Below are positions 819 to 42,100 of a DNA stretch of 45,256 nt, piece by piece (position 1 is the first letter of the stretch; each line of letters opens with the position of its first letter). A program made the translations under genes and the position numbers. Source of the stretch: Escherichia phage bob; sequence record NC_073072.1, one strand, 5' to 3'. The notes under the pieces were generated by a model. It made no database searches. It saw only the letters and a program-made list of their open reading frames with translations, and had not been told where the DNA came from.

Positions 819-1093
819 CACCAGAAGGCAAGGTGCAGCGTCACCTTATGAAACGGGTTAAAGAGGTCGGCGGATTCTGCAGAAAACTGGCATGGGAGGG
901 GCGCGCGGGTGCGCCCGACCTGATTATTATCATCAACGGCAAAATAGTGTTTGTCGAAGTGAAGCGCCCCGGTGGAAAACCGAAGCCGCACCAGGTACGT
1001 GAACATGAGCGAATGGCCCGCCGCGGTGCTGACGTTCGCGTTATCGACAACATATCCGACTGCGATTTATTGGTTGCTGAATTGGTCGCATAG
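815..1093 (+). CDS. VRR-NUC domain nuclease
   Basis: 92 aa; ...GAPDLIIIINGKIVFVEVKRPGGKPKPHQ... matches the VRR-NUC PD-(D/E)xK core (D...E-V-K); ATG overlaps upstream stop. Confidence 0.8.
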   Translation: MTPEGKVQRHLMKRVKEVGGFCRKLAWEGRAGAPDLIIIINGKIVFVEVKRPGGKPKPHQVREHERMARRGADVRVIDNISDCDLLVAELVA

Positions 1094-1133
1094 CGGTATA
1101 GTGTGCCGGTTAGCCATATCGAGGATTTTAGAG

Positions 1134-4004: not shown

Positions 4005-4031
4005 ATTGGTTGCATAATCATATTGGTTGCA
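4005..4031. promoter_or_regulatory. tandem pair of ATTGGTTGCA motifs
   Basis: ATTGGTTGCA at 4005-4014 and 4022-4031, intergenic; one of about 18 genome-wide copies of this 8-9-mer. Confidence 0.5.
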
Positions 4032-4040
4032 TTATCTTAA

Positions 4041-4072
4041 GGGTGTTCCGAAGGGAACGCCCTTTTTTTTTT
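4041..4072 (+). terminator. rho-independent terminator
   Basis: GGGTGTTCC-gaag-GGAACGCCC stem (one G-U pair) followed by T10. Confidence 0.65.
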
Positions 4073-4782: not shown

Positions 4783-5268
4783 ATGCAGAAGAGTGAGCAA
4801 AAAGATAGCTGGCGCACGCCGCCAGCTTTATTCAAACCGCTGCGCCGTAAGTTCCGATTCCGTTACGATATGGCGGCAAGCGACGCCAACCATCTGCTAC
4901 CGCGTTACTTCACGGCAGAGCACAGCGCGCTTGATGTGGACTGGTCAGAGTTGAAAGGGTGGAAGTGGTGCAATCCGCCGTATTCCGATCCGCTGCCGTG
5001 GGTCGAGTGTGCAGCGCACGGACGCCGGACTGTCATGCTACTGAATCAGGACACGTCGACGAAGTGGGCGAAGCTGGCCCGGAAGACTGCAAACCTGATA
5101 ATTCTTCTGGACTGGCGGATTAGATTTATACACGCCGTCACCGGCGAAGTCGGGCCTAGCAATAACAAGTGCCAGCAATTGATAATCTTTGACGAAGCGC
5201 CACCCATCGGCAGCGCACAAATTGAAATAATGAGCGAAGGAGAACTCCTTGAATATCTTAATCGTTGA
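4783..5268 (+). CDS. phage-type DNA N6-adenine methyltransferase (Dam family)
   Basis: SWRTPPALF...RYDMAASDANHLLPRYFT...WKWCNPPYSDPLPWV: NPPY catalytic motif and the conserved WxTP N-terminus of the phage Dam family. Confidence 0.85.
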   Translation: MQKSEQKDSWRTPPALFKPLRRKFRFRYDMAASDANHLLPRYFTAEHSALDVDWSELKGWKWCNPPYSDPLPWVECAAHGRRTVMLLNQDTSTKWAKLARKTANLIILLDWRIRFIHAVTGEVGPSNNKCQQLIIFDEAPPIGSAQIEIMSEGELLEYLNR

Positions 5269-5473
5269 CCGCGACCCTGCGGTAGTAGACCGAATGCAAA
5301 GAGACTATAACATCGACCCACGCCGCGATCGTGTGAAGCGAGTGTCACGTCCGGAATATATCCTGGGTCTGGACCTTACCGGCTGGCTTGTCATAACCGC
5401 AAATTGGCATCTTGTGTGTAACAAGTTTTCCGCCAGAGTTGTTCGTTCGGATTTGGTTGAGGAATTAAAATGA
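5249..5473 (+). CDS. hypothetical protein (TTG start), translationally coupled between Dam and HAD genes
   Basis: AAGGAG RBS 7 nt upstream of TTG 5249; stop overlaps ATG of next gene; overlaps Dam 3' end by 20 nt. Confidence 0.35.
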   Translation: MNILIVDRDPAVVDRMQRDYNIDPRRDRVKRVSRPEYILGLDLTGWLVITANWHLVCNKFSARVVRSDLVEELK

Positions 5474-5940
5474 AACTACTGATTTGTGATTTGGATGGCG
5501 TCATTAACGGTTCAAGCGATGCGCGTGCCGACCTGGTGCCAGGTATAAAAACCAAATCAACATTTTGGGCGAAGTGGCACAAAGCGCATGTACGCGAAGA
5601 CCTTAACATGGATATGCTGCCGCTGTTGAGCATGTATAAAGAGCAAGGCTTCGAGATCGCGTATCTGACAAACCGGCAGCGAGAATGCTGGGAGACTACC
5701 GTCGAGCAATTGGAAGTATTCCCCGTAGGCCGGTTGTTTATGCGCCACATGCTGGACGATACCCCGCCGCCAGTGTTTAAAGCGTGCGCCGTGTTCAAAA
5801 TGGTCTGCTATGCGGACGTATCGGAACTGGTCATCATTGAAGACTGTCCGAAGAACATCGCGGCCATTCGACGGGCGTGCAGCGATCTGGTCCCGAAAAT
5901 TTATGCGATAAACGTTGCAAAATTTACTTGCAACCAATAG
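5470..5940 (+). CDS. HAD-superfamily hydrolase (putative nucleotidase/phosphatase)
   Basis: N-terminal HAD motif I LICDLDGVI; 156 aa. Confidence 0.6.
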   Translation: MKLLICDLDGVINGSSDARADLVPGIKTKSTFWAKWHKAHVREDLNMDMLPLLSMYKEQGFEIAYLTNRQRECWETTVEQLEVFPVGRLFMRHMLDDTPPPVFKACAVFKMVCYADVSELVIIEDCPKNIAAIRRACSDLVPKIYAINVAKFTCNQ

Positions 5941-5950
5941 GTTGGTTGCA
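5929..5950. promoter_or_regulatory. perfect palindrome TGCAACCAA-tagg-TTGGTTGCA
   Basis: 9 bp inverted repeat with 4 bp spacer, overlapping stop codon of 5470..5940 and upstream of gene at 6000. Confidence 0.55.
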
Positions 5951-5999
5951 TTATATTTAACTCGTCGGGGCAATACGGCCCCGCTAAAGGAAAAACATC

Positions 6000-6521
6000 A
6001 TGAAAGCATACGAATACTGCAAAAACGCCGCCACCACTATGGAACAGCGCGGGAAAGAAAACGGCTATGACAACGCGAAAGAAGAACGCAGCGCTAAACA
6101 GATCGCTGCCGTGTTTAATGCGCTTACCGGTCGCGACCTGACCGAGCAAGAAGCCTGGACCTTCTTGATCTGCCTGAAGCTGGTGCGCCAGCACCGTAAG
6201 CACCAGGAAGATAATATCGTTGATTTGGTAGCGTACGCCGCATTGCTGGGCGAGTCGTACATGACCGTACACGACGAGATTCAGGTTGATACAACGGCAG
6301 CGCAATACGACAGCCTTAAAGGTTGGCCCATCGCCACCGCGGGGACGTGGCATCCTTCGTCATCGGCAGGCAAGACGGTTAAAGCCGCTAATTTCGGCGT
6401 CGTAGACCAGGACGTCCAGCCTATGGTCGTGCTCACCGGCGAGGACGGATCGAAAATCCTCATGACGCCGGAAGATTTCCGCAACATGGAAAAAACACTG
6501 GTGACTGGCGCACTTAAATAA
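6000..6521 (+). CDS. hypothetical protein; N-terminal all-alpha region loosely MazG-like (tentative)
   Basis: ATG 6000 with AAAGGAAAAA upstream; weak resemblance ...QEDNIVDLVAYAALL... to NTP-pyrophosphohydrolase helices. Confidence 0.5.
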   Translation: MKAYEYCKNAATTMEQRGKENGYDNAKEERSAKQIAAVFNALTGRDLTEQEAWTFLICLKLVRQHRKHQEDNIVDLVAYAALLGESYMTVHDEIQVDTTAAQYDSLKGWPIATAGTWHPSSSAGKTVKAANFGVVDQDVQPMVVLTGEDGSKILMTPEDFRNMEKTLVTGALK

Positions 6522-6563
6522 TGCTAATAGCGGGCTTCGGCCCGCATCAATGAGGACCACACG

Positions 6564-7139
6564 ATGTACGGCGAATACGAAATATCTGGTAAACAATTCC
6601 ACCTGGCGGCAATGATCGCAAGCATCGAGTTTGACCAGTGGAGATACAAGTCTGACGCGTGCAAGCAAAGCCGTCTTGTCGGTGTGCTGGGCGAGATGTT
6701 TGCGGGCATGTACCTCGAGGGTCAGGCGGGCGGGCGTAGTTGTATCCCGCAAGGCTTGCTCATGCGTACCGGCTTGTTCAGCGCCAATACCATCGACCGC
6801 GGCGATATCATCATGGTCGGTAAGCGCAAGGTTAAATCCGGCACCGACTTCCGCGAGCATGTGATCGATGCCGTCTGGACCTACGAGGTTAAAGCCACCA
6901 GCGGCATTCGCCGCGGACTGGTTGAGGCACGTTGCGCTCGCGAGTATCTTGCCCGTCGAGTTGCTGGTGTTATCCTGGTGAGCGTAGATTTCGGACAACA
7001 TAACGCGCACGGCGTGATTGAAGATATCGCGGAACCATACGTCATCGTTAATGACTGGCCCTTAGTGGAAGTTGAGGGCAAGGAATATTACGAAAGCCCG
7101 CTAGTACGGCGCAAAATGGACTGGGAAAACTCAAACTAG
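6564..7139 (+). CDS. hypothetical protein; possible PD-(D/E)xK-like motif
   Basis: ATG 6564 with GAGGA 7 nt upstream; HVIDAVWTYEVKAT resembles D...ExK; function unverified. Confidence 0.5.
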   Translation: MYGEYEISGKQFHLAAMIASIEFDQWRYKSDACKQSRLVGVLGEMFAGMYLEGQAGGRSCIPQGLLMRTGLFSANTIDRGDIIMVGKRKVKSGTDFREHVIDAVWTYEVKATSGIRRGLVEARCAREYLARRVAGVILVSVDFGQHNAHGVIEDIAEPYVIVNDWPLVEVEGKEYYESPLVRRKMDWENSN

Positions 7140-9332: not shown

Positions 9333-9411
9333 AGCTAAATCCTCGTAATTGGTTGCAATCCTGGCTGAGCGGTGTAATACTAAAACTCAACCAAATATAG
9401 GGGATGATACC

Positions 9412-19555: not shown

Positions 19556-19745
19556 TTATTCAGTCTCAGACGAGGGGGGCCATTGACCCCCGTCTAGTCT
19601 GAAAGACTGGGGTGCTGTCCCGCTGTCCCGATCGGCTGAAAACCGCGGCAGCACTGGCGGGGACGGGGTGCTGTCCCGTTTTGTCCCGCCCCTTGTTTGT
19701 CCCGCTTTCTGTCCCGCTTACTTTATGCAATAAAACTGCATAGGT
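19556..19745. repeat. copy A of a ~180-190 bp dispersed element (G-rich hairpin plus GTCCCG iterons)
   Basis: First ~75 bp TTATTCAGTCTCAGACGAGGGGGGCCAtTGACCCCCGTCTAGTCTGAAAGACTGGGGTGCTGTCCCGCTGTCCCG near-identical to 35971-36045; both copies end TTTATGCA..TTGCATA. Confidence 0.8.
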
Positions 19746-19764
19746 ATGCACATTTACAGGGCGT

Positions 19765-19874
19765 GACAAAACGGGACGTCCCGCCTGTCCCGCTTTGAGT
19801 TTATGCAATGAAAGTGATTAGATATGCGGTTTTACAGAGGCGGGACAAAACGGGACGTCCCGCCTGTCCCGCTT
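19765..19874. repeat. two perfect 31 bp direct repeats each containing the 12 bp palindrome CGGGACGTCCCG
   Basis: GACAAAACGGGACGTCCCGCCTGTCCCGCTT at 19765-19795 and 19844-19874, inside a ~79 bp imperfect tandem unit. Confidence 0.8.
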
Positions 19875-25364: not shown

Positions 25365-25467
25365 GCTATCCCCCTGGGATTGTGGCAGAGCAGGCCACCC
25401 GCTCGACTTCACGCTTCTAATATTATCAGCGATAAAAATAATCGCAAAATTCGCTTGCAATCCGCGT

Positions 25468-25492
25468 ATTGGTTGCACTATATTGGTTGCAC
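25468..25492. promoter_or_regulatory. tandem pair of TATTGGTTGCA motifs in a divergent intergenic region
   Basis: Copies at 25468-25478 and 25482-25492, between scaffold gene start (25364) and plus-strand gene at 25514. Confidence 0.5.
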
Positions 25493-25513
25493 ACCAACAA
25501 CGAGGACACAAAA

Positions 25514-26278
25514 ATGAGACTGACAAAAGACATTAAAAACCAGATTCTGGCTAACATCCTGCGCGACCACGAAATCGCGACCGAAGCCAAATCAATCATG
25601 ATGGACTCTCGAAATCTGGCGTACGCCATTACGATGGACTGTATGCCGGAAGGCATTCATTCGTTCGCCGAGCTACGTGAGCGCATTGCAGCAATCGGCG
25701 GTGACCCGTCGCAGATGTACGGCGTCTGTGTGTACACCAACAAGGCGACGTATAGACATGACGCCGACAGCCCATATGGTGTAGGCAGCGTTTACGAAGC
25801 CACTTTCGAAATCAACGCAGGCGGAAACGTCCGTACCGTGTCATTGAGCGGAGACGGACACCGAGTCCGAGTATATCGCGGATACGGGGAGTATAAATAC
25901 ATGAATAAACTGTCTCCCGATCTCGGCGATATTGTGCCTGGGTATGAGGAAATTTTGTTAGCGTCAGTGTGCGAAGTCGATGACGACGGGAAAGCGCTGC
26001 CGATATATATGCCACGCGGTCGTATAGACTACCCGGCGGACCATGATTTCTGTAAGCGCCTGGACCGTAACGACAAGGCCCGCCGTGAGTTGCGTGCTAA
26101 GTATGACGCGTTCAAACTAACTGTTACCGGCGTGCTGGATATGCACAATACCGATAAGAAGCTGATCAAGGCGTGGCCTGAAGTGGAACAGTTCATTCCT
26201 TACCCGGGCAAGCCGAAGTCCACGGCGGTGGCGCTGGACGTGAAGACGTTAAACGAGATTTGCGGTATTCCGCGCTAA
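25514..26278 (+). CDS. hypothetical protein (254 aa) on the opposite strand within the late operon (moron-like)
   Basis: ATG 25514; own upstream motif pair and downstream bidirectional terminator; no recognisable domain. Confidence 0.6.
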   Translation: MRLTKDIKNQILANILRDHEIATEAKSIMMDSRNLAYAITMDCMPEGIHSFAELRERIAAIGGDPSQMYGVCVYTNKATYRHDADSPYGVGSVYEATFEINAGGNVRTVSLSGDGHRVRVYRGYGEYKYMNKLSPDLGDIVPGYEEILLASVCEVDDDGKALPIYMPRGRIDYPADHDFCKRLDRNDKARRELRAKYDAFKLTVTGVLDMHNTDKKLIKAWPEVEQFIPYPGKPKSTAVALDVKTLNEICGIPR

Positions 26279-26732: not shown

Positions 26733-27828
26733 GCCATAACCCCCGGTTTTTAAGCTGTGCAATAGTCATCAGTTCGCCAGAATCGGTAAACATCTTCGGC
26801 ACTTTCACGCCGCGCATAATCTGGTCGGCGCGTTGCACTCCATATAACTCCTCCAGGATGTGGCGCGGCTGGCGCTGCACCCAGGAGAAGAAATCAGTCT
26901 GCGCGTCGACCTGCTCACTCAGCAACCGGCCCGCGTCAGCCTTCAATGCCGGACGCTTACCACTGGGCCAATCTTCCATGCCCTTAACTTTCCACGTCTC
27001 CGTAGACCGGCAACAATAATGCAACTTGCCCGGACCAGCGCCATATTGTGACCCAGCCACCACTTTCCCGCCGCGCTTTCCTTTGGTGTTGGGAGTGACG
27101 TCAACAGGATAAAACAGGCGATCGCGTAGCTGGCACATTGGGGAAGTATGAGTGTCCAATGTAGCCAACCATTGGCGACCTTCGAGAATATCGTCATTAG
27201 CTTTCACCATTAATTCGCGGGCAGTCGCCGCATAGTGGTTAACTGCGGACTTAACAACGCTTGAGATTGCCTGCGCACTACGACCGCCGAGAGCGCGCCT
27301 CACGTCCGCGATAATTTCCATAGTCGGCTTGCCCTGGATGAAGCCAGCGCGCACCTGATTACCGATCTGCGTCCTGGTCCACTCAGAGAGTGAGTCAGGC
27401 CATTGCATCATCGTATTACCCTGGAACGGGTTTTTCATAGCCGTCGCTGCGATCTGTGCACCGGTAACAACGCCAACTACTTCAACAGCGGGTACGGCGA
27501 CAGCGGGCTGGATCGCTGCCGTTAGTGTGTCAGCGAGATAATCAGCCTCGGTGTCGGCGAACTCCTGAAGGCTTTCAGCCAGCGCCTTAAACTCGGTGCG
27601 CAGTTCTGTTTTAACGGTCTTGTCGAGTTGCGTTAACAGAGTGGTAAGTGCCTTGTTGTTCATGGACTTTTTGCCATCAAGTAACTCGGTCAGCTTACCC
27701 AGTAACGTGGGCCGGAACTTCTCCCACATAGCCAGCACCCGCCGCGCCTGGTCATTGCTCAGGCGCTGGGTGAAGATGTGACGACGGATCATGCGATCCG
27801 CCATATGTTGATTAATCGTTCTCGCCAT
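26725..27828 (-). CDS. head morphogenesis protein (Mu F / SPP1 gp7-like)
   Basis: 367 aa; ...WLATLDTHTSPMCQ... motif typical of the family; immediately downstream of portal. Confidence 0.75.
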   Translation of the reverse strand: MARTINQHMADRMIRRHIFTQRLSNDQARRVLAMWEKFRPTLLGKLTELLDGKKSMNNKALTTLLTQLDKTVKTELRTEFKALAESLQEFADTEADYLADTLTAAIQPAVAVPAVEVVGVVTGAQIAATAMKNPFQGNTMMQWPDSLSEWTRTQIGNQVRAGFIQGKPTMEIIADVRRALGGRSAQAISSVVKSAVNHYAATARELMVKANDDILEGRQWLATLDTHTSPMCQLRDRLFYPVDVTPNTKGKRGGKVVAGSQYGAGPGKLHYCCRSTETWKVKGMEDWPSGKRPALKADAGRLLSEQVDAQTDFFSWVQRQPRHILEELYGVQRADQIMRGVKVPKMFTDSGELMTIAQLKNRGLWRD

Positions 27829-31410: not shown

Positions 31411-32553
31411 TTACTTCAACATTTCCGGGCTAATGGTTAAGCGCGCTACTTCGCCGTAGTTGGCGCTGTAGGTAATGACGTTTGCGCTGCGACCGGACAT
31501 CCAACCGCCACGACTGGCGTAGGCGTCTTTCGCTGCGAGCGTCCGGTGCTGTTCAACAATCATGTTGCGGGATTCTACAATCTTCTGGTGGTGCAAGTGG
31601 CCTATGTGCGCGTAGCTGTACTCACTGGATCCGAAAGCCTGTCTGAATTTAGAAATCATGACGGTTTCGATAGCGTCAAAGCGCGCTTTGTGCCCGTGGT
31701 GGAAGAATAGCGTGGTCTTGCCGTGCTGCACCATTTTGTAGACGTCCGGGGACGTATCCACATCGACGCGCGGCTCGTTCTCGTACAGAGTATTGAACAT
31801 CTCAGCCAGCCAAATCATACCCGACTCGTCATGATTTCCCTGGACGATTAGCAGTTTGACTTTGTGGTGTTTTTGCAGCGCCAGTTCGACGACGTTGCGC
31901 ACCATGCGAATCATGTAGCGGACCAACTTCTGGTATCGGGTATCTGCGTCCAGGATATGACCACTGGCTGGGGTGACGGCATCGAGGCTATCAAAATGCG
32001 CCATATCACCGAGGATATTGATTACGGCAGTTCCTGCGTCTGGTGCGCGGGCGAAGGCTTCGACAAACCAGCGGTAAAACAGGTCTTCGGCAATCGCCAT
32101 ATCCCAGTCTTCGCCAGTCTCCTCGCCCCAGGCCAACATGCCCAGGTGGAAGTCGGACACGGTATACAGGTTGAGCAAGTCGAGCGCCTTGATCGGTACT
32201 GGCGGGGCGTTTACTGGCGCTGCCGGTGTGATTTCGCTGTTCATACCCTCGACAACAGCGCGCATGGCTTCGAGTTGGCGCTCTTTGTCCTGCTCAGTGA
32301 TGACCCACGACATGACCTCTTCGCCATTGCCGCGCACCAGGGCCGATACGCGCTTAACCCCAAAGCCATCTGCAACTCGCTTACGGATCACGGCATCATT
32401 ACCGTGACCAATTCCCTTTTTCGATAGGCGGGCTTTGCGCATATAGACATTTCGAAGTGCAATGCCGTATTTCTTTGCAATCTCTTTAACCGTAGTCCCT
32501 GCCTGAATTTCTGCGATCAATTGCTCATCGGTAATTTTAGTTTGCGGGTGCAT
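31411..32553 (-). CDS. calcineurin-like metallophosphoesterase with N-terminal HTH domain
   Basis: Motifs ILGDMAHFD, VQGNHDE, HHGH, GHLHH; N-terminal TVKEIAKKYGIALRNVY helix-turn-helix. Confidence 0.75.
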   Translation of the reverse strand: MHPQTKITDEQLIAEIQAGTTVKEIAKKYGIALRNVYMRKARLSKKGIGHGNDAVIRKRVADGFGVKRVSALVRGNGEEVMSWVITEQDKERQLEAMRAVVEGMNSEITPAAPVNAPPVPIKALDLLNLYTVSDFHLGMLAWGEETGEDWDMAIAEDLFYRWFVEAFARAPDAGTAVINILGDMAHFDSLDAVTPASGHILDADTRYQKLVRYMIRMVRNVVELALQKHHKVKLLIVQGNHDESGMIWLAEMFNTLYENEPRVDVDTSPDVYKMVQHGKTTLFFHHGHKARFDAIETVMISKFRQAFGSSEYSYAHIGHLHHQKIVESRNMIVEQHRTLAAKDAYASRGGWMSGRSANVITYSANYGEVARLTISPEMLK

Positions 32554-32714: not shown

Positions 32715-32750
32715 GATTGGTTGCAGTATGGCGTCTATGTTGGTTGCAAG
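32715..32750. promoter_or_regulatory. pair of TTGGTTGCA motifs
   Basis: GATTGGTTGCAG 32715-32726 and TGTTGGTTGCAAG 32738-32750, between lysis-cassette terminator and the tiny ORF/phosphatase gene. Confidence 0.5.
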
Positions 32751-32759
32751 TCAAGCAAT

Positions 32760-35028: not shown

Positions 35029-35177
35029 TGCTCTGTCTCCTCGATCTCGTAAACAGTTTTCGTATCACCATCGCATACCGTTGCGATGCCGTGGCGTTCG
35101 TAGTCAAGTGCGCACATACGCGGGTCGATATTACCCTGCGAAGACAGCCGCATTAGTTCTCTCTGCATTGGTGTCAT
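35025..35177 (-). CDS. small hypothetical protein (50 aa), speculative
   Basis: GGAG RBS; ATGA-type overlaps with both neighbours; below track cutoff. Confidence 0.3.
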   Translation of the reverse strand: MTPMQRELMRLSSQGNIDPRMCALDYERHGIATVCDGDTKTVYEIEETEQ

Positions 35178-35443
35178 TTGCTCAGTCTCCAGTGTTTGCC
35201 TACCCGCTCAACGGCAGGCTTTCGGCGTAATGTAATACGAATCCCCATTGGTTGCAAGGAAGTCCGCACCCTGAAATCGTGTTGTGCTGCGAACTGGTGC
35301 AAGTAGCGAGTCTGCGTCAGTGGCTTTACGTCATCGCGATAGCACCAGTACACAGAATCCCCCACATTCGCATTCTTAGCCCATATTCGTATGCAATGCA
35401 GGGGAATATGCCACGAAAGCTGTTTTGCTCGTCTACGTCCCAT
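35174..35443 (-). CDS. hypothetical protein (89 aa)
   Basis: ATG 35443 with AAGGGG RBS; stop overlaps next start. Confidence 0.45.
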   Translation of the reverse strand: MGRRRAKQLSWHIPLHCIRIWAKNANVGDSVYWCYRDDVKPLTQTRYLHQFAAQHDFRVRTSLQPMGIRITLRRKPAVERVGKHWRLSK

Positions 35444-35452
35444 TTTGGCCCC

Positions 35453-35758
35453 TTATTTCGCAAGCTGGGTGAATAGCTCACGCTGGGCTTTAATCCTGGC
35501 GACGTTTGTCACTGCCTTATCGCCAATACCGAAGCGATATGCCAGGCGCTCGCGGGAGAATGCACGCGCGTATTCGTGGATTGCCTTCGCCAGCGTCTTC
35601 AGTTCGTCAAGGCTGGCATCAATGCCGTCGAGCGCATACATGATTGCCTGCTGGGCCAGTATTACTACATGCGCCGCGCGGTCTGCGTTGCCGTTCAGAG
35701 CCTTCGCTTCGTCCAGCTTCGCCAGGGCCATTGCGTAATTCCAGATTAATGCTCTCAT
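35453..35758 (-). CDS. hypothetical protein (101 aa), helical
   Basis: Natural ATG; first gene downstream of the 590 bp non-coding region. Confidence 0.55.
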   Translation of the reverse strand: MRALIWNYAMALAKLDEAKALNGNADRAAHVVILAQQAIMYALDGIDASLDELKTLAKAIHEYARAFSRERLAYRFGIGDKAVTNVARIKAQRELFTQLAK

Positions 35759-35779
35759 CGTTCAGTCCTCATGTTGGTG

Positions 35780-35821
35780 TGCAACCAATATAGCAAGGTG
35801 CCAGGGCGAATGCAACCAATA
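35780..35821. promoter_or_regulatory. pair of TGCAACCAAT motifs upstream of minus-strand gene 35758
   Basis: Copies at 35780-35790 and 35811-35821; a further TATTGGTTGCC at 35901-35911. Confidence 0.5.
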
Positions 35822-35970
35822 TTAATCACGCGCATGAAAAAGTTGATCGCTATCTGCTGCAACTGCAAACTGCGTTTTTCACTCAGCATAGTGCATCTCG
35901 TATTGGTTGCCTAGTTCATCCGCGACCGCACTTCACATCATGCTGCCGTGTATTTTGCAATCTCCGGATT

Positions 35971-36158
35971 TTATTCAGTCTCAGACGAGGGGGGCCACTG
36001 ACCCCCGTCTAGTCTGAAAGACTGGGGTGCTGTCCCGCTGTCCCGCTCCTCTGGAAGCCGCGCCATCCGGGGCGGGACGGGGGTGCTGTCCCGCTTTGTC
36101 CCGCCCCTAGTCTGTCCCGCTTTTTGTCCCGTTTGGTTTATGCAGTTTTATTGCATAA
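35971..36158. repeat. copy B of the ~180-190 bp dispersed element
   Basis: Same hairpin GACGAGGGGGGCCAcTGACCCCCGTC and six GTCCCG iterons; aligns with 19556-19745. Confidence 0.8.
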
Positions 36159-36182
36159 CTATTCATTACATCCACATTACAC

Positions 36183-36302
36183 GGCAACCAACGCGACTGG
36201 ATAAAAACACTCAAAATGGCAACCAATGCGCGCAAAATTTAGTCTTTTAGCGATATGGGAATCCACATATCGGCAACCAATGCGCGCAAAATTTAATCTT
36301 TT
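36183..36302. repeat. iteron-like direct repeats GGCAACCAA(T/C)GCG(CGCAAAATTTARTCTTTTA) next to an AT-rich tract; candidate replication origin
   Basis: Three copies starting 36183, 36217, 36271; the last two are 32 bp near-identical; AT-rich 36136-36180. Confidence 0.45.
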
Positions 36303-36345
36303 AAATCGTCATCGGTCGCCGAAAGCGTGATGGGTATATTCGTTT

Positions 36346-38644: not shown

Positions 38645-38974
38645 TTACTTAGAAGTTTTATTATTGCGTACCCAGGAGCGCACTGTGCTCTGATTAATTC
38701 CGGTCAACTCGGCAATCATCGCCCAGGATTTGCCCTCGGCGCGCAAACGGATAACCTGTTTTTTGTATTCTTCCATTTCTTCATTGTGCTTTTGCAGCTT
38801 GCTTGCTGCCGTGCCGTTGAGCAATTCCAGCCTGGCGCGTAATTCTTTTTCGGTAAGTCGCAGACGTTCGATTTCAAATAGCACCGCACCCACGGCATCG
38901 GTATACGCCCAAGACCGGCTTGTCTCACTGCAAACAGTCTTAGTTAACATTTCGATTGCGTCGTCGATATTCAT
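38645..38974 (-). CDS. HTH DNA-binding protein (putative regulator)
   Basis: 109 aa; C-terminal KSWAMIAELTGINQSTVRSWV helix-turn-helix; GGAG RBS; first gene of the leftward early operon. Confidence 0.6.
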   Translation of the reverse strand: MNIDDAIEMLTKTVCSETSRSWAYTDAVGAVLFEIERLRLTEKELRARLELLNGTAASKLQKHNEEMEEYKKQVIRLRAEGKSWAMIAELTGINQSTVRSWVRNNKTSK

Positions 38975-39104
38975 TTTTCTGTCTCCGGTTGGTTAATGAC
39001 CAACGAAACTACACCTAAAACCGCAGGGTGTCAACTTCTTTGGAATATTGAAACGGGCGCGCACGCGTGTAATAATACTCCCGTCTCATTGTCTCTTATT
39101 GGTT

Positions 39105-39140
39105 AGCGCCGTCGCATTTTGCTTCGGCGCTTTTTTTTTT
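39105..39140 (+). terminator. hairpin plus T10 tract (terminator-like, or UP-element-like T-tract for the adjacent promoter)
   Basis: AGCGCCG-(13 nt loop)-CGGCGCT then T10 at 39131-39140, 12-21 bp upstream of the -35. Confidence 0.4.
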
Positions 39141-39151
39141 GAAATTAGTTG

Positions 39152-39181
39152 TTGACACCCATCCTGCAACCAATCTATTAT
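39152..39181 (+). promoter_or_regulatory. sigma70-type early promoter (TTGACA-18-TATTAT)
   Basis: Consensus -35 TTGACA at 39152-39157, -10 TATTAT at 39176-39181; a GCAACCAAT motif lies in the spacer. Confidence 0.6.
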
Positions 39182-41775: not shown

Positions 41776-42010
41776 AGTATTTGCAATCTTATTGATGTTT
41801 GTTATCGGCGCGCTGGGCTTTATCCTGAATTGTGTGCAAGGCGTGTTAATGGTGGCGTGGATGGTTCGACATCCGACCCGCTGGCTGGATGACGGTTATA
41901 GCGAAGCTGCCGCCGATTGGGTGGAGAAGAACATCGACCGCCCGCCGTTAAGCTGGATCGAGAACGCCACCAACTACGTGACCAGAAATCTTTTTAATGA
42001 AAATGCTTGA
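41768..42010 (+). CDS. small membrane protein (80 aa)
   Basis: TMD FAILLMFVIGALGFIL; start overlaps upstream gene end. Confidence 0.5.
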   Translation: MNKVFAILLMFVIGALGFILNCVQGVLMVAWMVRHPTRWLDDGYSEAAADWVEKNIDRPPLSWIENATNYVTRNLFNENA

Positions 42011-42100
42011 CCGCTTAGGCGCAACCAAGTAGATTAGCAACCAAGCCGGACGGGGTGGCTTCCAATAACCCCGATACATGTGAAAATGAGGAATTGGAAA

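What the first reader, a model, noticed from the sequence alone, without database searches (positions are those of the whole stretch)
5929..5950. Perfect 9+9 bp palindrome made of two head-to-head motif copies
TGCAACCAA-tagg-TTGGTTGCA is a perfect inverted repeat with a 4 bp spacer, overlapping the stop codon of the HAD-like gene and ~50 bp upstream of the next gene. This is the clearest operator-like arrangement of the recurrent motif and supports its half-sites being bound by a dimer.
Basis: seen in the sequence. Interest (0 to 1): 0.45.

Follow-up and report, generated by a model that had tools for sequence, protein, structure and literature searches.

The report
Paired regulatory boxes inside a phage promoter
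The palindrome is real, but it is two copies of a 10-base box (TGCAACCAAT) that marks most predicted promoters of this E. coli phage genus, here sitting head-to-head between the -35 and -10 elements of one promoter. The box is most likely a docking site for a phage regulatory protein, and the mirror symmetry itself is not conserved.

Summary
TGCAACCAA-TAGG-TTGGTTGCA lies at 5929-5950, covers the last three codons and the TAG stop of the HAD-like phosphatase gene, and ends 49 bp before the ATG at 6000. The window is a complete Dhillonvirus genome (HK578/SSL-2009a-like virulent E. coli siphovirus).

TGCAACCAAT is its most over-represented 10-mer: 11 copies against 0.09 expected. Copies are almost all intergenic and are kept at the same loci across the genus. 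At eight loci the boxes sit inside or next to sigma70-like promoters.

At this locus the two boxes fill the 18-bp spacer of TTGCAA(5928)-N18-TATATT(5957). A conserved hairpin, a ribosome-binding site and the DUF6378 gene follow.

In relatives the same promoter carries the two boxes as direct repeats in either orientation, and it still keeps TTGCAA 17-18 bp upstream of TAnnnT. So the functional unit is a single asymmetric box, not a dyad, and a hairpin or terminator role is not conserved.

Best reading: these are operator boxes for a phage-encoded helix-turn-helix protein. The top candidate is the 109-aa early protein at 38645..38974. This is an undescribed member of a known kind of element, and binding is untested.

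The parts
5929..5938 (+). Box 1, TGCAACCAAT. It overlaps the -35-like hexamer and the last three codons plus the first base of the stop codon of gene 5470..5940.
   Evidence: It is conserved in 8 of 9 aligned genomes at this position.
5941..5950 (-). Box 2, TGCAACCAAC on the minus strand. It lies 1 nt upstream of the -10 hexamer.
   Evidence: A box is kept at this position in all 9 genomes, but its orientation flips in Bas84 and slur05.
5928..5933 (+). -35-like hexamer TTGCAA.
   Evidence: In all three box arrangements TTGCAA lies 17-18 bp upstream of TAnnnT.
5952..5957 (+). -10-like hexamer TATATT, with an 18-bp spacer.
   Evidence: Relatives have TATAGT, TACATT or TATATT, so positions 1, 2 and 6 are invariant and only positions 3 and 5 vary.
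5966..5983 (+). Conserved stem-loop CGGGGC-aatacg-GCCCCG. It starts about 2 nt after the predicted transcription start (~5964) and is probably a 5'-terminal mRNA hairpin.
   Evidence: All 9 genomes keep it, with one pair showing a compensatory G-C to A-U change and a stem lengthened on both sides.
6000..6521 (+). Downstream gene (DUF6378, a nucleotide-modification-associated protein) with ribosome-binding site AGGA at 5988-5991.
5470..5940 (+). Upstream HAD-like phosphatase gene. Its stop codon TAG (5938-5940) lies in the loop of the palindrome.
4006..4038 (+). Same architecture: TTGGTTGCA-N8-TTGGTTGCA-t-TATCTT. A terminator hairpin at 4039-4064 follows immediately.
25455..25491 (+). Same architecture: TTGCAA-N8-TTGGTTGCA-c-TATATT overlapping a second box. 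It drives the Nmad5 gene 25514..26278. On the minus strand the same two boxes flank TATAGT and face the scaffold and capsid genes.
32717..32754 (-). TTGACT-[box]-N9-CATAC[T-box], placed after a bidirectional terminator and upstream of the metallophosphatase and terminase operon.
35780..35819 (-). Two boxes at the start of the leftward operon: TTGCAT-17-TATATT, with a box from the -10 to +1. They lie 22 nt upstream of the ATG at 35758.
39152..39181 (+). Strong promoter-like site TTGACA-18-TATTAT with one box (39165-39174) in the spacer.
   Evidence: The HK578 GenBank record annotates a promoter at the equivalent place.
42007..42044 (+). TTGACC-17-TAGATT with CGCAACCAA in the spacer and AGCAACCAA just after the -10. 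It lies upstream of the SSB-like gene.
1070..1102 (+). TTGGTTGC-N4-TTGGTCGC-N7-TATAGT at the 3' end of the VRR-NUC gene, upstream of the next small gene.
9349..9357 (-). Single box 17 nt upstream of the ATG (9332) of the lateral tail-fibre gene. LM40P1 has two boxes here.
35248..35256 (-). Single exact box inside the 89-aa ORF 35174..35443, conserved in all genomes examined.
38645..38974 (-). Candidate box-binding protein of 109 aa: a long coiled-coil helix followed by a C-terminal helix-turn-helix. It is the first gene of the leftward early operon.

Best explanation
The 22-bp palindrome is two copies of an asymmetric 10-bp regulatory box, TGCAACCAAT. The boxes are embedded in a sigma70-type promoter that drives the DUF6378 gene at 6000. 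Box 1 overlaps the -35 hexamer (TTGCAA). Box 2 fills the rest of the 18-bp spacer and ends 1 nt before the -10 (TATATT).

The box is a genus-wide signal. It sits in the spacer, over the -35, or from the -10 to +3 at most predicted promoters of the phage, in either orientation and at variable spacing.

Most likely each box is read by one helix-turn-helix domain of a phage-encoded protein that is joined into dimers by a flexible coiled coil. The best candidate is the 109-aa early protein at 38645..38974.

Because the boxes overlap the core promoter elements and the start site, binding here would compete with RNA polymerase. That would turn this promoter, and the others, down or time them during the lytic cycle.

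Shown: the sequence, its enrichment, its intergenic and promoter-associated placement, its conservation, and the plasticity of its orientation.

Inferred: that a protein binds the box, which protein it is, and whether it represses or activates.
For: 1. Enrichment and placement. TGCAACCAAT occurs 11 times against 0.09 expected and is the top 10-mer. In the annotated relative Bas15, 11 of 13 exact boxes lie in the 6% of the genome that is intergenic (P=3e-12), and a 12th straddles a stop codon.

2. Conservation. All eight complete relatives carry boxes at the same loci; the three counted for the exact 9-mer hold 11-13 copies. Pooled identity is 0.93-0.96 in the core, against about 0.77-0.93 in the flanks.

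3. Promoter context. A simple scan finds TTGCAA-18-TATATT at 5928-5957. Boxes lie within or beside the best sigma70-like match at eight loci. Five of the 27 promoter-like hits in the two scanned stretches (30 kb) overlap boxes, all on the gene strand.

4. Footprint at this locus. Across 9 genomes the two boxes occur as ->/<-, ->/-> and <-/<-. TTGCAA stays 17-18 bp upstream of TAnnnT throughout, and the -10 changes only at positions 3 and 5. A conserved hairpin starts at about +2.

5. Candidate binder.
- It is the only Pfam-recognisable helix-turn-helix among the 20 small or unassigned proteins scanned.
- It scores above the gathering threshold for HTH_23, Sigma70_r4_2 and HTH_28.
- The AlphaFold2 model has mean pLDDT 85 and shows a helix at 21-79 followed by a C-terminal helix-turn-helix.
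- That domain superposes locally (about 1 A over 34-46 residues) on LuxR/GerE/NarL and resolvase DNA-binding domains.
- The last ~60 residues are nearly invariant while the N-terminus is swapped among lineages, matching the invariance of the box.

6. Distant relative. On an ENA contig whose protein is 61% identical, boxes again fill a promoter spacer (TTGACG-[CAACCAAC][GCAACCAAT]-TAACCT). An exact box also lies about 8 nt after the -10 of the helix-turn-helix gene's own promoter, which suggests autoregulation.

7. Not a host or prophage element. The 22-mer is absent from 185,579 representative bacterial and archaeal genomes. The early region has no match in 5,426 complete E. coli genomes.
Against: - There is no experimental evidence of binding, of a transcription start, or of regulation.
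- The box never varies, so co-variation between box and protein cannot be tested.
- HK578-type genomes have no box at the helix-turn-helix gene's own promoter, and the window has only a 7/10 variant there.
- A global repressor of nearly all promoters is an odd design for a strictly virulent phage.
- Two late promoters, for the head genes (leftward) and the tail fibre, lack a recognisable -35. That fits activation better than repression.
- TTGCA inside the box is itself -35-like, so part of the conservation could be plain promoter selection.
- The Foldseek matches are local only, with E-values above 0.8.
Confidence: 0.55

Rival explanations
1. The box is a positive promoter element. A phage factor, possibly the same sigma-region-4-like protein, binds it and recruits or remodels host RNA polymerase. 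Box-bearing promoters would then form the middle and late class, switched on after the box-free early promoters PL and PR1.
For: - The divergent early promoters PL (TTGACA-17-TAGTTT) and PR1 (TTGAAA-17-AATAAT) carry no canonical box, and the helix-turn-helix gene is the first gene transcribed from PL.
- Box-bearing sites precede replication, head, tail-fibre and packaging genes.
- Several box-bearing sites have weak or absent -35 hexamers and suboptimal 18-bp spacers.
- The protein scores above threshold for Sigma70_r4_2.
- A strictly lytic phage with no RNA polymerase of its own needs some such switch.
Against: - Box position relative to the -10 is not fixed. Box centres range from about -35 to about +1, and orientation varies. 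Known specificity elements such as the T4 MotA box sit at a fixed distance.
- Boxes lying from the -10 to +3, or between the start site and the ribosome-binding site (32717, 35780, 9349), are placed where activators do not normally bind.
- The promoter at 39152 matches the consensus at 11 of 12 positions and should need no activator.
Confidence: 0.25
2. The palindrome acts in RNA as an intrinsic terminator, or attenuating hairpin, at the end of the phosphatase gene.
For: - The scan lists it as terminator-like on both strands: a 9-bp stem, a 4-nt loop and the tail TTATATTT.
- The RNA fold is -11.8 kcal/mol, z=-3.3 against shuffles.
- It lies exactly at a gene end.
Against: - The stem has only 4 G-C pairs. 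Bona fide terminators in the window have 5-7 G-C pairs and runs of 4-10 T.
- In relatives with the palindrome the tail is CTATAGTTAAC or CTATAGTAAAC, which falls below the U-tract criterion.
- In 3 of 9 genomes the boxes are direct repeats that cannot pair.
- The same box is mostly unpaired or in direct repeats at the other loci.
- Rfam gives no match.
Confidence: 0.08
3. The box is a site for a host transcription factor that the phage exploits, for example a CytR-like or GntR/FadR-like protein.
For: - Three boxes are preceded by AA, giving the CytR octamer AATGCAAC/GTTGCATT. CytR is known to accept direct or inverted half-sites (my own knowledge of the CytR literature, not tested here).
- ACCAAT resembles a half-site of PdhR/UxuR-type operators.
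- TTGGT-N5-ACCAA palindromes occur at 25483-25497, 35774-35788 and 38989-39003.
Against: - The most conserved part is GCAACCAAT. The AA needed for the CytR octamer is present in only 3 of 13 boxes.
- The GntR-type arrangement TTGGT-N3-ACCAA is never seen.
- No flanking CRP sites were looked for or noticed.
- None of my literature searches linked the word to a phage or to a host regulator.
Confidence: 0.07
4. The boxes are iterons for a replication-origin-binding protein, and their promoter association is secondary.
For: - The helix-turn-helix gene directly precedes the primase-helicase gene.
- Three GGCAACCAA(T/C)GCG copies (two of them carrying the 32-nt unit GGCAACCAATGCGCGCAAAATTTA...) lie next to an AT-rich stretch and a cluster of TGTCCCGC repeats, just downstream of the helicase gene (36031-36303).
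- The same layout recurs on the distant contig L142.
Against: - The locus under study, and most other boxes, are far from that region.
- They are tied to -35 and -10 geometry, which iterons do not require.
- The two roles are not exclusive. DnaA and P1 RepA act both as initiators and as repressors (established knowledge).
Confidence: 0.05

Closest known systems
Dispersed asymmetric operators of phage P1 C1 repressor and the operator/stoperator sites of mycobacteriophage L5 gp71
   Same: A short asymmetric site is present in a dozen or more copies scattered over the phage genome. Nearly all copies are intergenic, as singles or as direct or inverted pairs, and they overlap promoters or lie just downstream of them. 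In P1 and L5 the site is read by one phage-encoded helix-turn-helix protein. (P1 and L5 facts are established knowledge; the L5 comparison is also made for T1-like repeats in PMC11447400.)
   Different: P1 and L5 are temperate and those proteins are immunity repressors. This phage has no integrase, and I found no prophage or plasmid copies. L5 stoperators keep one orientation relative to transcription, whereas these boxes occur in both. The sequences are unrelated, and binding here is untested.
KorA/KorB global regulons of IncP plasmids (operators inside about 7-12 promoters)
   Same: A small helix-turn-helix protein with a dimerisation helix, and identical short operators placed over the -10 or -35 of many promoters of one replicon. 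(Established knowledge, used as an analogy only.)
   Different: KorA and KorB operators are palindromes read by symmetric dimers. The box here is asymmetric with free orientation. The replicon is a virulent phage rather than a plasmid. I detected no sequence homology.
21-nt direct repeats of T1-like phages (TLS: aaATAGCACnnnTTGnTAAAA, 21 copies)
   Same: The phages belong to a sister group (Drexlerviridae). They likewise have few recognisable promoters, a conserved intergenic repeat of unknown function upstream of genes, and modules bounded by terminators (PMC11447400).
   Different: The sequence and length differ. [quoted passage not shown] The boxes here lie inside the core promoter, in both orientations.
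CytR operators of E. coli (octamer GTTGCATT, direct or inverted, variable spacing)
   Same: The word TGCAAC/GTTGCA is shared, and half-sites tolerate direct or inverted arrangement. (Own knowledge of the CytR literature.)
   Different: The conserved core extends into CCAAT, which CytR does not need. The AA of the CytR octamer is present in only 3 of 13 boxes.
Rho-independent terminator
   Same: A stem-loop at a gene end followed by a T-rich tail.
   Different: The stem is weak, the tail is not conserved, and pairing is impossible in 3 of 9 relatives.

Membership tests
Sigma70-type promoter | -35-like and -10-like hexamers separated by 16-18 bp on the strand of the downstream gene | tested here: met
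   TTGCAA (5928) -18- TATATT (5957), matching 9 of 12 consensus positions.
Sigma70-type promoter | Conservation pattern expected of -10 selection: positions 1, 2 and 6 fixed | tested here: met
   Nine genomes have TATATT, TATAGT or TACATT, so only positions 3 and 5 vary. TTGCAA is kept 17-18 bp upstream in all three box arrangements.
Sigma70-type promoter | A mapped transcription start | not testable with these tools
   I found no transcript data. The start predicted from the geometry is about 5964.
Symmetric (dyad) operator bound by a homodimer | Inverted-repeat symmetry and half-site spacing conserved among orthologous sites and among sites of the regulon | tested here: not met
   Orthologous sites are ->/<-, ->/-> or <-/<- with gaps of 4, 3 or 8 nt. 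Other loci hold direct repeats spaced 12-31 bp, or single boxes.
Symmetric (dyad) operator bound by a homodimer | Overlap with core promoter elements | tested here: met
   Both boxes lie between, and overlap, the -35 and -10.
Dispersed asymmetric phage operators (P1 C1 or L5 gp71 type) | An asymmetric site in many copies, overwhelmingly intergenic | tested here: met
   13 exact copies. 11-12 of 13 are intergenic in Bas15, P=3e-12.
Dispersed asymmetric phage operators (P1 C1 or L5 gp71 type) | A cognate phage-encoded repressor shown to bind the site | not testable with these tools
   I have only a candidate, the 109-aa helix-turn-helix protein.
Dispersed asymmetric phage operators (P1 C1 or L5 gp71 type) | Temperate lifestyle, with the sites serving prophage immunity | tested here: not met
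   No integrase is annotated in four relatives. The 22-mer is absent from 185,579 representative genomes, and the early region is absent from 5,426 complete E. coli genomes.
L5 stoperators specifically | A single orientation relative to the direction of transcription | tested here: not met
   Both orientations occur relative to the downstream gene, even at one orthologous site.
Rho-independent terminator | A G+C-rich stem followed by a U-tract, conserved in relatives | tested here: not met
   The stem has 4 G-C pairs of 9 and folds at -11.8 kcal/mol. The tail loses its T's in relatives, and 3 of 9 genomes cannot form the stem.
TLS/T1-type 21-nt direct repeats | Consensus aaATAGCACnnnTTGnTAAAA, co-oriented with transcription, about 76 nt upstream of the start codon | tested here: not met
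   The sequence, placement and orientation behaviour all differ.
Known RNA family (Rfam) | A match to any covariance model | tested here: not met
   No match with E<=1 in 5000-7000.

The most novel reading that the evidence does not exclude
The TGCAACCAAT boxes and the coiled-coil, sigma-region-4-like 109-aa protein together form a genus-wide transcription switch of a strictly virulent siphovirus. One early protein would read orientation-free single boxes placed over the -35, spacer or start site of nearly every non-early promoter. It would act as a stand-in or competitor for sigma70 region 4, both supplying and masking -35-like TTGCA elements. It might also mark the replication origin region through the GGCAACCAAT repeats. 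That would be a mode of host-polymerase reprogramming not described for T1-like or Dhillonvirus-type phages.
Probability: 0.12. Interest if true: 0.6.

Novelty: new member of a known kind. Interest (0 to 1): 0.36.

Why it matters
Dhillonviruses are common E. coli phages. They are used in the BASEL collection, in studies of anti-phage defence systems and in phage-therapy work, yet their transcription programme is unknown.

A single 10-bp box tied to most predicted promoters gives three things. It is a direct handle for mapping transcription units. It points to a candidate master regulator that can be tested by gel shift, knock-out or expression in trans. It also offers a compact, orientation-tolerant operator-and-promoter design that could be reused in phage engineering.

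For this particular finding, the practical message concerns experimental design. Experiments should target the single box and its position in the promoter, not the dyad symmetry.

Tried and rejected
- **Pair scan in IMG/VR.** Scanning for any pair TGCAACCAA-N(1-31)-TGCAACCAA returned 120 or more mostly unrelated contigs, largely tandem coding repeats and chance hits. It gave no information on other phage groups that might use the box.
- **Third arrangement.** The exact LM40P1-type arrangement was not found in IMG/VR.
- **Literature.** Searches for Dhillonvirus with promoter, for HK578, for the related phage names, and for the motif words on either strand found no description of the box.
- **RNA families.** Rfam gave nothing on 5000-7000.
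- **Solved structures.** A profile search of the PDB with the helix-turn-helix protein family gave only a designed repeat protein and coiled-coil noise. Foldseek gave only local helix-turn-helix matches.
- **Outside the genus.** tblastn of the helix-turn-helix protein against 50,697 phage records found it only in Dhillonvirus-like genomes; a few records carry Campylobacter, Acinetobacter or Sodalis organism names. No comparison outside the genus was therefore possible, apart from one 6-kb ENA contig.
- **Co-variation.** A test of box against recognition helix is impossible, because both are invariant.
- **Ideas considered and dropped.**
  - Sigma54 promoter: the GG/GC spacing is wrong.
  - ECF-type promoter: TGCAAC is present, but no CGT-type -10 lies at 16-17 bp.
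  - Extended -10: there is no TG at -15/-14.
  - MotA-like element at a fixed distance: box positions vary from about -35 to +1.
  - RNA-level motif in 5' UTRs: the orientation flips at orthologous sites.
  - cos site: the 'cohesive ends' note in the SECphi4 record only says that the ends are unknown.
Full report
**What the window is.** The 45,256-bp window matches Dhillonvirus genomes (HK578, SSL-2009a, Envy, Bas15 and others) at about 80-95% identity; 166 phage records match an 8-kb stretch and 154 match the locus under study. The gene order equals that of the annotated relatives, read in reverse. The window is a complete, circularly permuted genome that appears to be cut inside the DNA polymerase gene. 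Plus-strand replication genes run from about 39.2 kb through the window ends to 7.1 kb. Minus-strand genes run from 38.97 kb down to 7.17 kb; these are the helix-turn-helix protein, primase-helicase, small genes, lysis, packaging, head and tail genes.

**The observation.** TGCAACCAA-TAGG-TTGGTTGCA is at 5929-5950, exactly as described. Box 1 encodes the last three codons (Cys-Asn-Gln) of the phosphatase gene 5470..5940, and the loop holds its TAG stop. The next ATG is at 6000. The upstream protein matches HAD IIIB acid phosphatase and the PHROG polynucleotide kinase/phosphatase family. The downstream protein is DUF6378.

A perfect 9+9 palindrome is not in itself unusual: the window has 4 with loops of up to 10 nt, against 1.6 in shuffles. 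Its building block, however, is the most over-represented word in the genome. TGCAACCAA occurs 13 times against 0.5 in shuffles, and TGCAACCAAT 11 times against 0.09 expected.

**The box family.** Exact boxes are at 4006-, 4023-, 5929+, 5942-, 9349-, 25469-, 25483-, 32717-, 32740-, 35248-, 35780+, 35811+ and 39165+. Variants that keep GCAACCAA are at 1070-, 35903-, 36183+, 36218+, 36272+, 42020+ and 42036+, with a weaker copy (GCGACCAA) at 1082-.
- The flanks show no conservation upstream of the box. Downstream there is only a T at position 10 and a weak A/T preference, so the unit is an asymmetric 10-mer.
- In Bas15, 11 of 13 exact boxes are intergenic, in 6% of the genome (P=3e-12). A twelfth straddles a stop codon.
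- Eight complete relatives (Bas15, Bas84, HK578, WFI, LM40P1, slur05 and CHD5UKE2, plus partial SECphi4 and SECphi18) keep boxes at the same loci.
- Pooled identity is 0.93-0.96 for the eight core positions and mostly 0.77-0.93 in the flanks.
- Copy number drifts locally. Bas15 has three 17-bp-spaced boxes at the 4006 locus. HK578 has one exact and one degenerate box there. LM40P1 has two at the tail-fibre locus and one at the 32740 locus.

**Promoter context.** A consensus scan flags 5928-5957 as TTGCAA-18-TATATT. The same scan and my own scoring place boxes inside or beside the best sigma70-like match at these sites:
- 39152: TTGACA-18-TATTAT, with a box in the spacer.
- 42007: TTGACC-17-TAGATT, with boxes on both sides of the -10.
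- 32754 (minus strand): TTGACT-[box]-N9-CATAC[T-box].
- 25455: TTGCAA-N8-[box]-c-TATAT[T-box].
- 35815 (minus strand): [box supplying TTGCAT]-17-TATAT[T-box].
- 1074, and by eye 4006-4038 ([box]-N8-[box]-t-TATCTT).

Five of the 27 promoter-like hits in the two scanned stretches (30 kb) overlap boxes, and all five are on the gene strand. Chance overlap would be far below one.

Two promoters share the layout TTGCAA-N8-TTGGTTGCA-N-TATATT. These are 5928 and 25455, and they drive the two genes annotated as nucleotide-modification-associated: DUF6378 and Nmad5.

The divergent early promoters PL (TTGACA-17-TAGTTT, 39034-39006) and PR1 (TTGAAA-17-AATAAT, 39048-39076) carry no canonical box.

**Comparative footprint at the locus.** The alignment of nine genomes is the key result. 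Six genomes, including the window, have ->/<- with a 4-nt gap. Bas84 and slur05 have ->/-> with a 3-nt gap. LM40P1 has <-/<- with an 8-nt gap.
- In all three arrangements, TTGCAA lies 17-18 bp upstream of a TAnnnT hexamer.
- The hexamer varies only at positions 3 and 5 (TATATT, TATAGT, TACATT).
- A box always ends 1 nt before the -10.
- Downstream, a hairpin (5966-5983 in the window) is kept in all nine genomes. It shows one G-C to A-U compensatory pair and lengthening on both sides of the stem. It starts about 2 nt after the predicted start site, as a 5'-terminal stabilising stem-loop would.
- In IMG/VR the exact palindrome occurs in 13 contigs of 42-45 kb and the direct version in 2.

This pattern argues for a real promoter and for DNA-level recognition of single boxes. 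It argues against a requirement for dyad symmetry. It also argues against an RNA hairpin or terminator role, because three of the nine genomes cannot form the stem. The T-rich tail seen in the window (TTATATTT) becomes CTATAGTT or CTATAGTA in the other palindrome-bearing genomes. The hairpin itself is modest, at -11.8 kcal/mol with 4 G-C pairs. Rfam finds nothing.

**Who reads the box.** I scanned 20 small or unassigned proteins against Pfam. Only the 109-aa product of 38645..38974 has a recognisable DNA-binding domain: HTH_23 at 2e-7, Sigma70_r4_2 at 1e-6 and HTH_28 at 2e-6, all above their gathering scores.
- It is the first gene after PL and directly precedes the primase-helicase gene.
- AlphaFold2 (17-sequence alignment, mean pLDDT 85) predicts a short helix, a 59-residue helix and a C-terminal helix-turn-helix.
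- Foldseek aligns only that last domain, at about 1 A over 34-46 residues, with LuxR/GerE/NarL, DeoR, resolvase and IstA DNA-binding domains. E-values exceed 0.8, so this is a fold resemblance and not homology evidence. The PDB sequence search was uninformative.
- The family is narrow: 24 clusters, almost all on contigs of about 45 kb. Its N-terminal third is replaced in several lineages, including the 142-149-aa HK578/CHD5UKE2 form. The last ~60 residues, including the recognition helix (GIN-x-ST-V/I-R-S/Q-W), are nearly invariant. That fits an invariant DNA target.
- On a 6-kb ENA contig whose protein is 61% identical, the boxes recur. Two tandem boxes fill a TTGACG...TAACCT spacer. Two boxes precede TATTAT, with TTGCAA at 17 bp. 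GGCAACCAATTGCA repeats lie beside GTCCCGC repeats downstream of the helicase gene. An exact box lies about 8 nt after the -10 of the helix-turn-helix gene's own promoter.
- In the window that last position holds TTGGTCATTAACCAAC, a 7/10 variant within a TTGGT-N5-ACCAA palindrome. HK578-type genomes have nothing there.

This is circumstantial support for the protein-box pairing and for negative autoregulation in part of the family.

**Mechanism and its uncertainty.** Boxes cover the -35, the spacer, or the stretch from the -10 to +3. They sometimes also cover the short leader before the ribosome-binding site (9349, 32717, 35780). A bound protein should therefore hinder polymerase binding or escape. 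Most box-bearing promoters also match the sigma70 consensus well enough (7-11 of 12) to fire unaided. I therefore favour an operator (repressing or timing) role at 5929-5950.

There is counter-evidence. The phage appears strictly virulent: the 22-mer is absent from 185,579 representative genomes, and the early region is absent from 5,426 complete E. coli genomes. No integrase is annotated in relatives. Boxes precede nearly every class of gene except the two early promoters. The leftward head promoter and the tail-fibre promoter lack a -35. All of that would suit an activator, or a dual-function switch like phi29 p4.

The sign of regulation is therefore an inference. I give repression at this promoter about 60:40 over activation, conditional on a protein binding at all.

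**Comparison with known systems.** The closest functional analogues are the dispersed asymmetric operators of P1 C1 and L5 gp71, and the KorA/KorB multi-promoter regulons. The nearest relative in taxonomy is the uncharacterised 21-nt direct repeat of T1-like phages (PMC11447400). The membership tests show that this element is none of those families. Its sequence is unrelated, its orientation is free, the lifestyle is not temperate, and the operator is not palindromic. None of my searches found a description of the box. I rate it a new, uncharacterised member of a known kind, of moderate interest.

Noticed in passing
window 19616-19872 and 36031-36120: A second over-represented word, (C)TGTCCCGC(T), occurs 15 times against 2.1 expected. 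It forms two non-coding clusters. One (7 copies) lies upstream of the tape-measure gene. The other (5 copies) lies just downstream of the primase-helicase gene, next to an AT-rich stretch. These are candidate origin or packaging signals. The same layout recurs on the distant contig L142 (2860-3000).
   Followed up: partly
window 36183-36303 and 35903-35911: Three GGCAACCAA(T/C)GCG copies lie here; two of them form a 32-nt direct repeat (GGCAACCAATGCGCGCAAAATTTA(G/A)TCTTTTA, 54 bp apart). An inverted copy sits at 35903. This is a longer variant of the box, confined to the putative origin region.
   Followed up: partly
window 39048-39140: The box-free promoter-like site PR1 (TTGAAA-17-AATAAT, preceded by TG) is followed about 30 nt later by a strong terminator (GCGCCG-N13-CGGCGC-T10). 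This predicts a ~55-nt RNA just upstream of the box-bearing promoter at 39152. Relatives annotate a 36-aa ORF here.
   Followed up: no
window 5966-5983: A conserved hairpin lies between the predicted transcription start and the ribosome-binding site of gene 6000. One pair shows a compensatory change, and the stem is lengthened on both sides in Bas84, slur05 and LM40P1.
   Followed up: yes
window 4023-4064: A box-plus-TATCTT promoter-like site abuts a strong terminator hairpin (4039-4064, followed by T10). A start about 7 nt after the -10 would fall inside the 5' arm of the stem, so transcripts initiated here might escape the terminator that stops upstream transcripts.
   Followed up: no
window 25483-25497, 35774-35788, 38989-39003: Three TTGGT-N5-ACCAA near-palindromes. 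Two are the identical 20-mer TATATTGGTTGCACACCAAC at the starts of divergent operons. One sits over the predicted start site of the helix-turn-helix gene's own promoter.
   Followed up: partly
window 25514-26278 and 6000-6521: The Nmad5 gene and the DUF6378 gene, both annotated as nucleotide-modification-associated, are 19 kb apart. They are preceded by the same promoter layout, TTGCAA-N8-TTGGTTGCA-N-TATATT, which suggests co-regulation.
   Followed up: partly
window 38645-38974; L005 35575-36003; L139 20200-20649; P0014-P0024: The helix-turn-helix protein has a mosaic history. Its last ~60 residues are nearly invariant, while the N-terminal part is replaced by at least four unrelated sequences in different lineages.
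   Followed up: partly
window 31411-32553 (-): The 380-aa metallophosphatase begins with a helix-turn-helix-like segment (TVKEIAKKYGIALRNVYMRKARL) that Pfam does not recognise. It is a second, weaker candidate DNA-binding protein, and it sits directly downstream of a box pair.
   Followed up: no
L003 (Bas15) 26949-26991: Three boxes in a perfect 17-bp tandem (TGCAACCAATATGATTA repeated twice, then a third box) where the window has two. This shows box gain by tandem duplication.
   Followed up: no
window 35834-35914 (+): A small ORF, MKKLIAICCNCKLRFSLSIVHLVLVA, starts 15 nt after box 35811. It lies on the strand opposite to the surrounding genes. HK578 annotates a 34-aa version that begins inside the box.
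   Followed up: no
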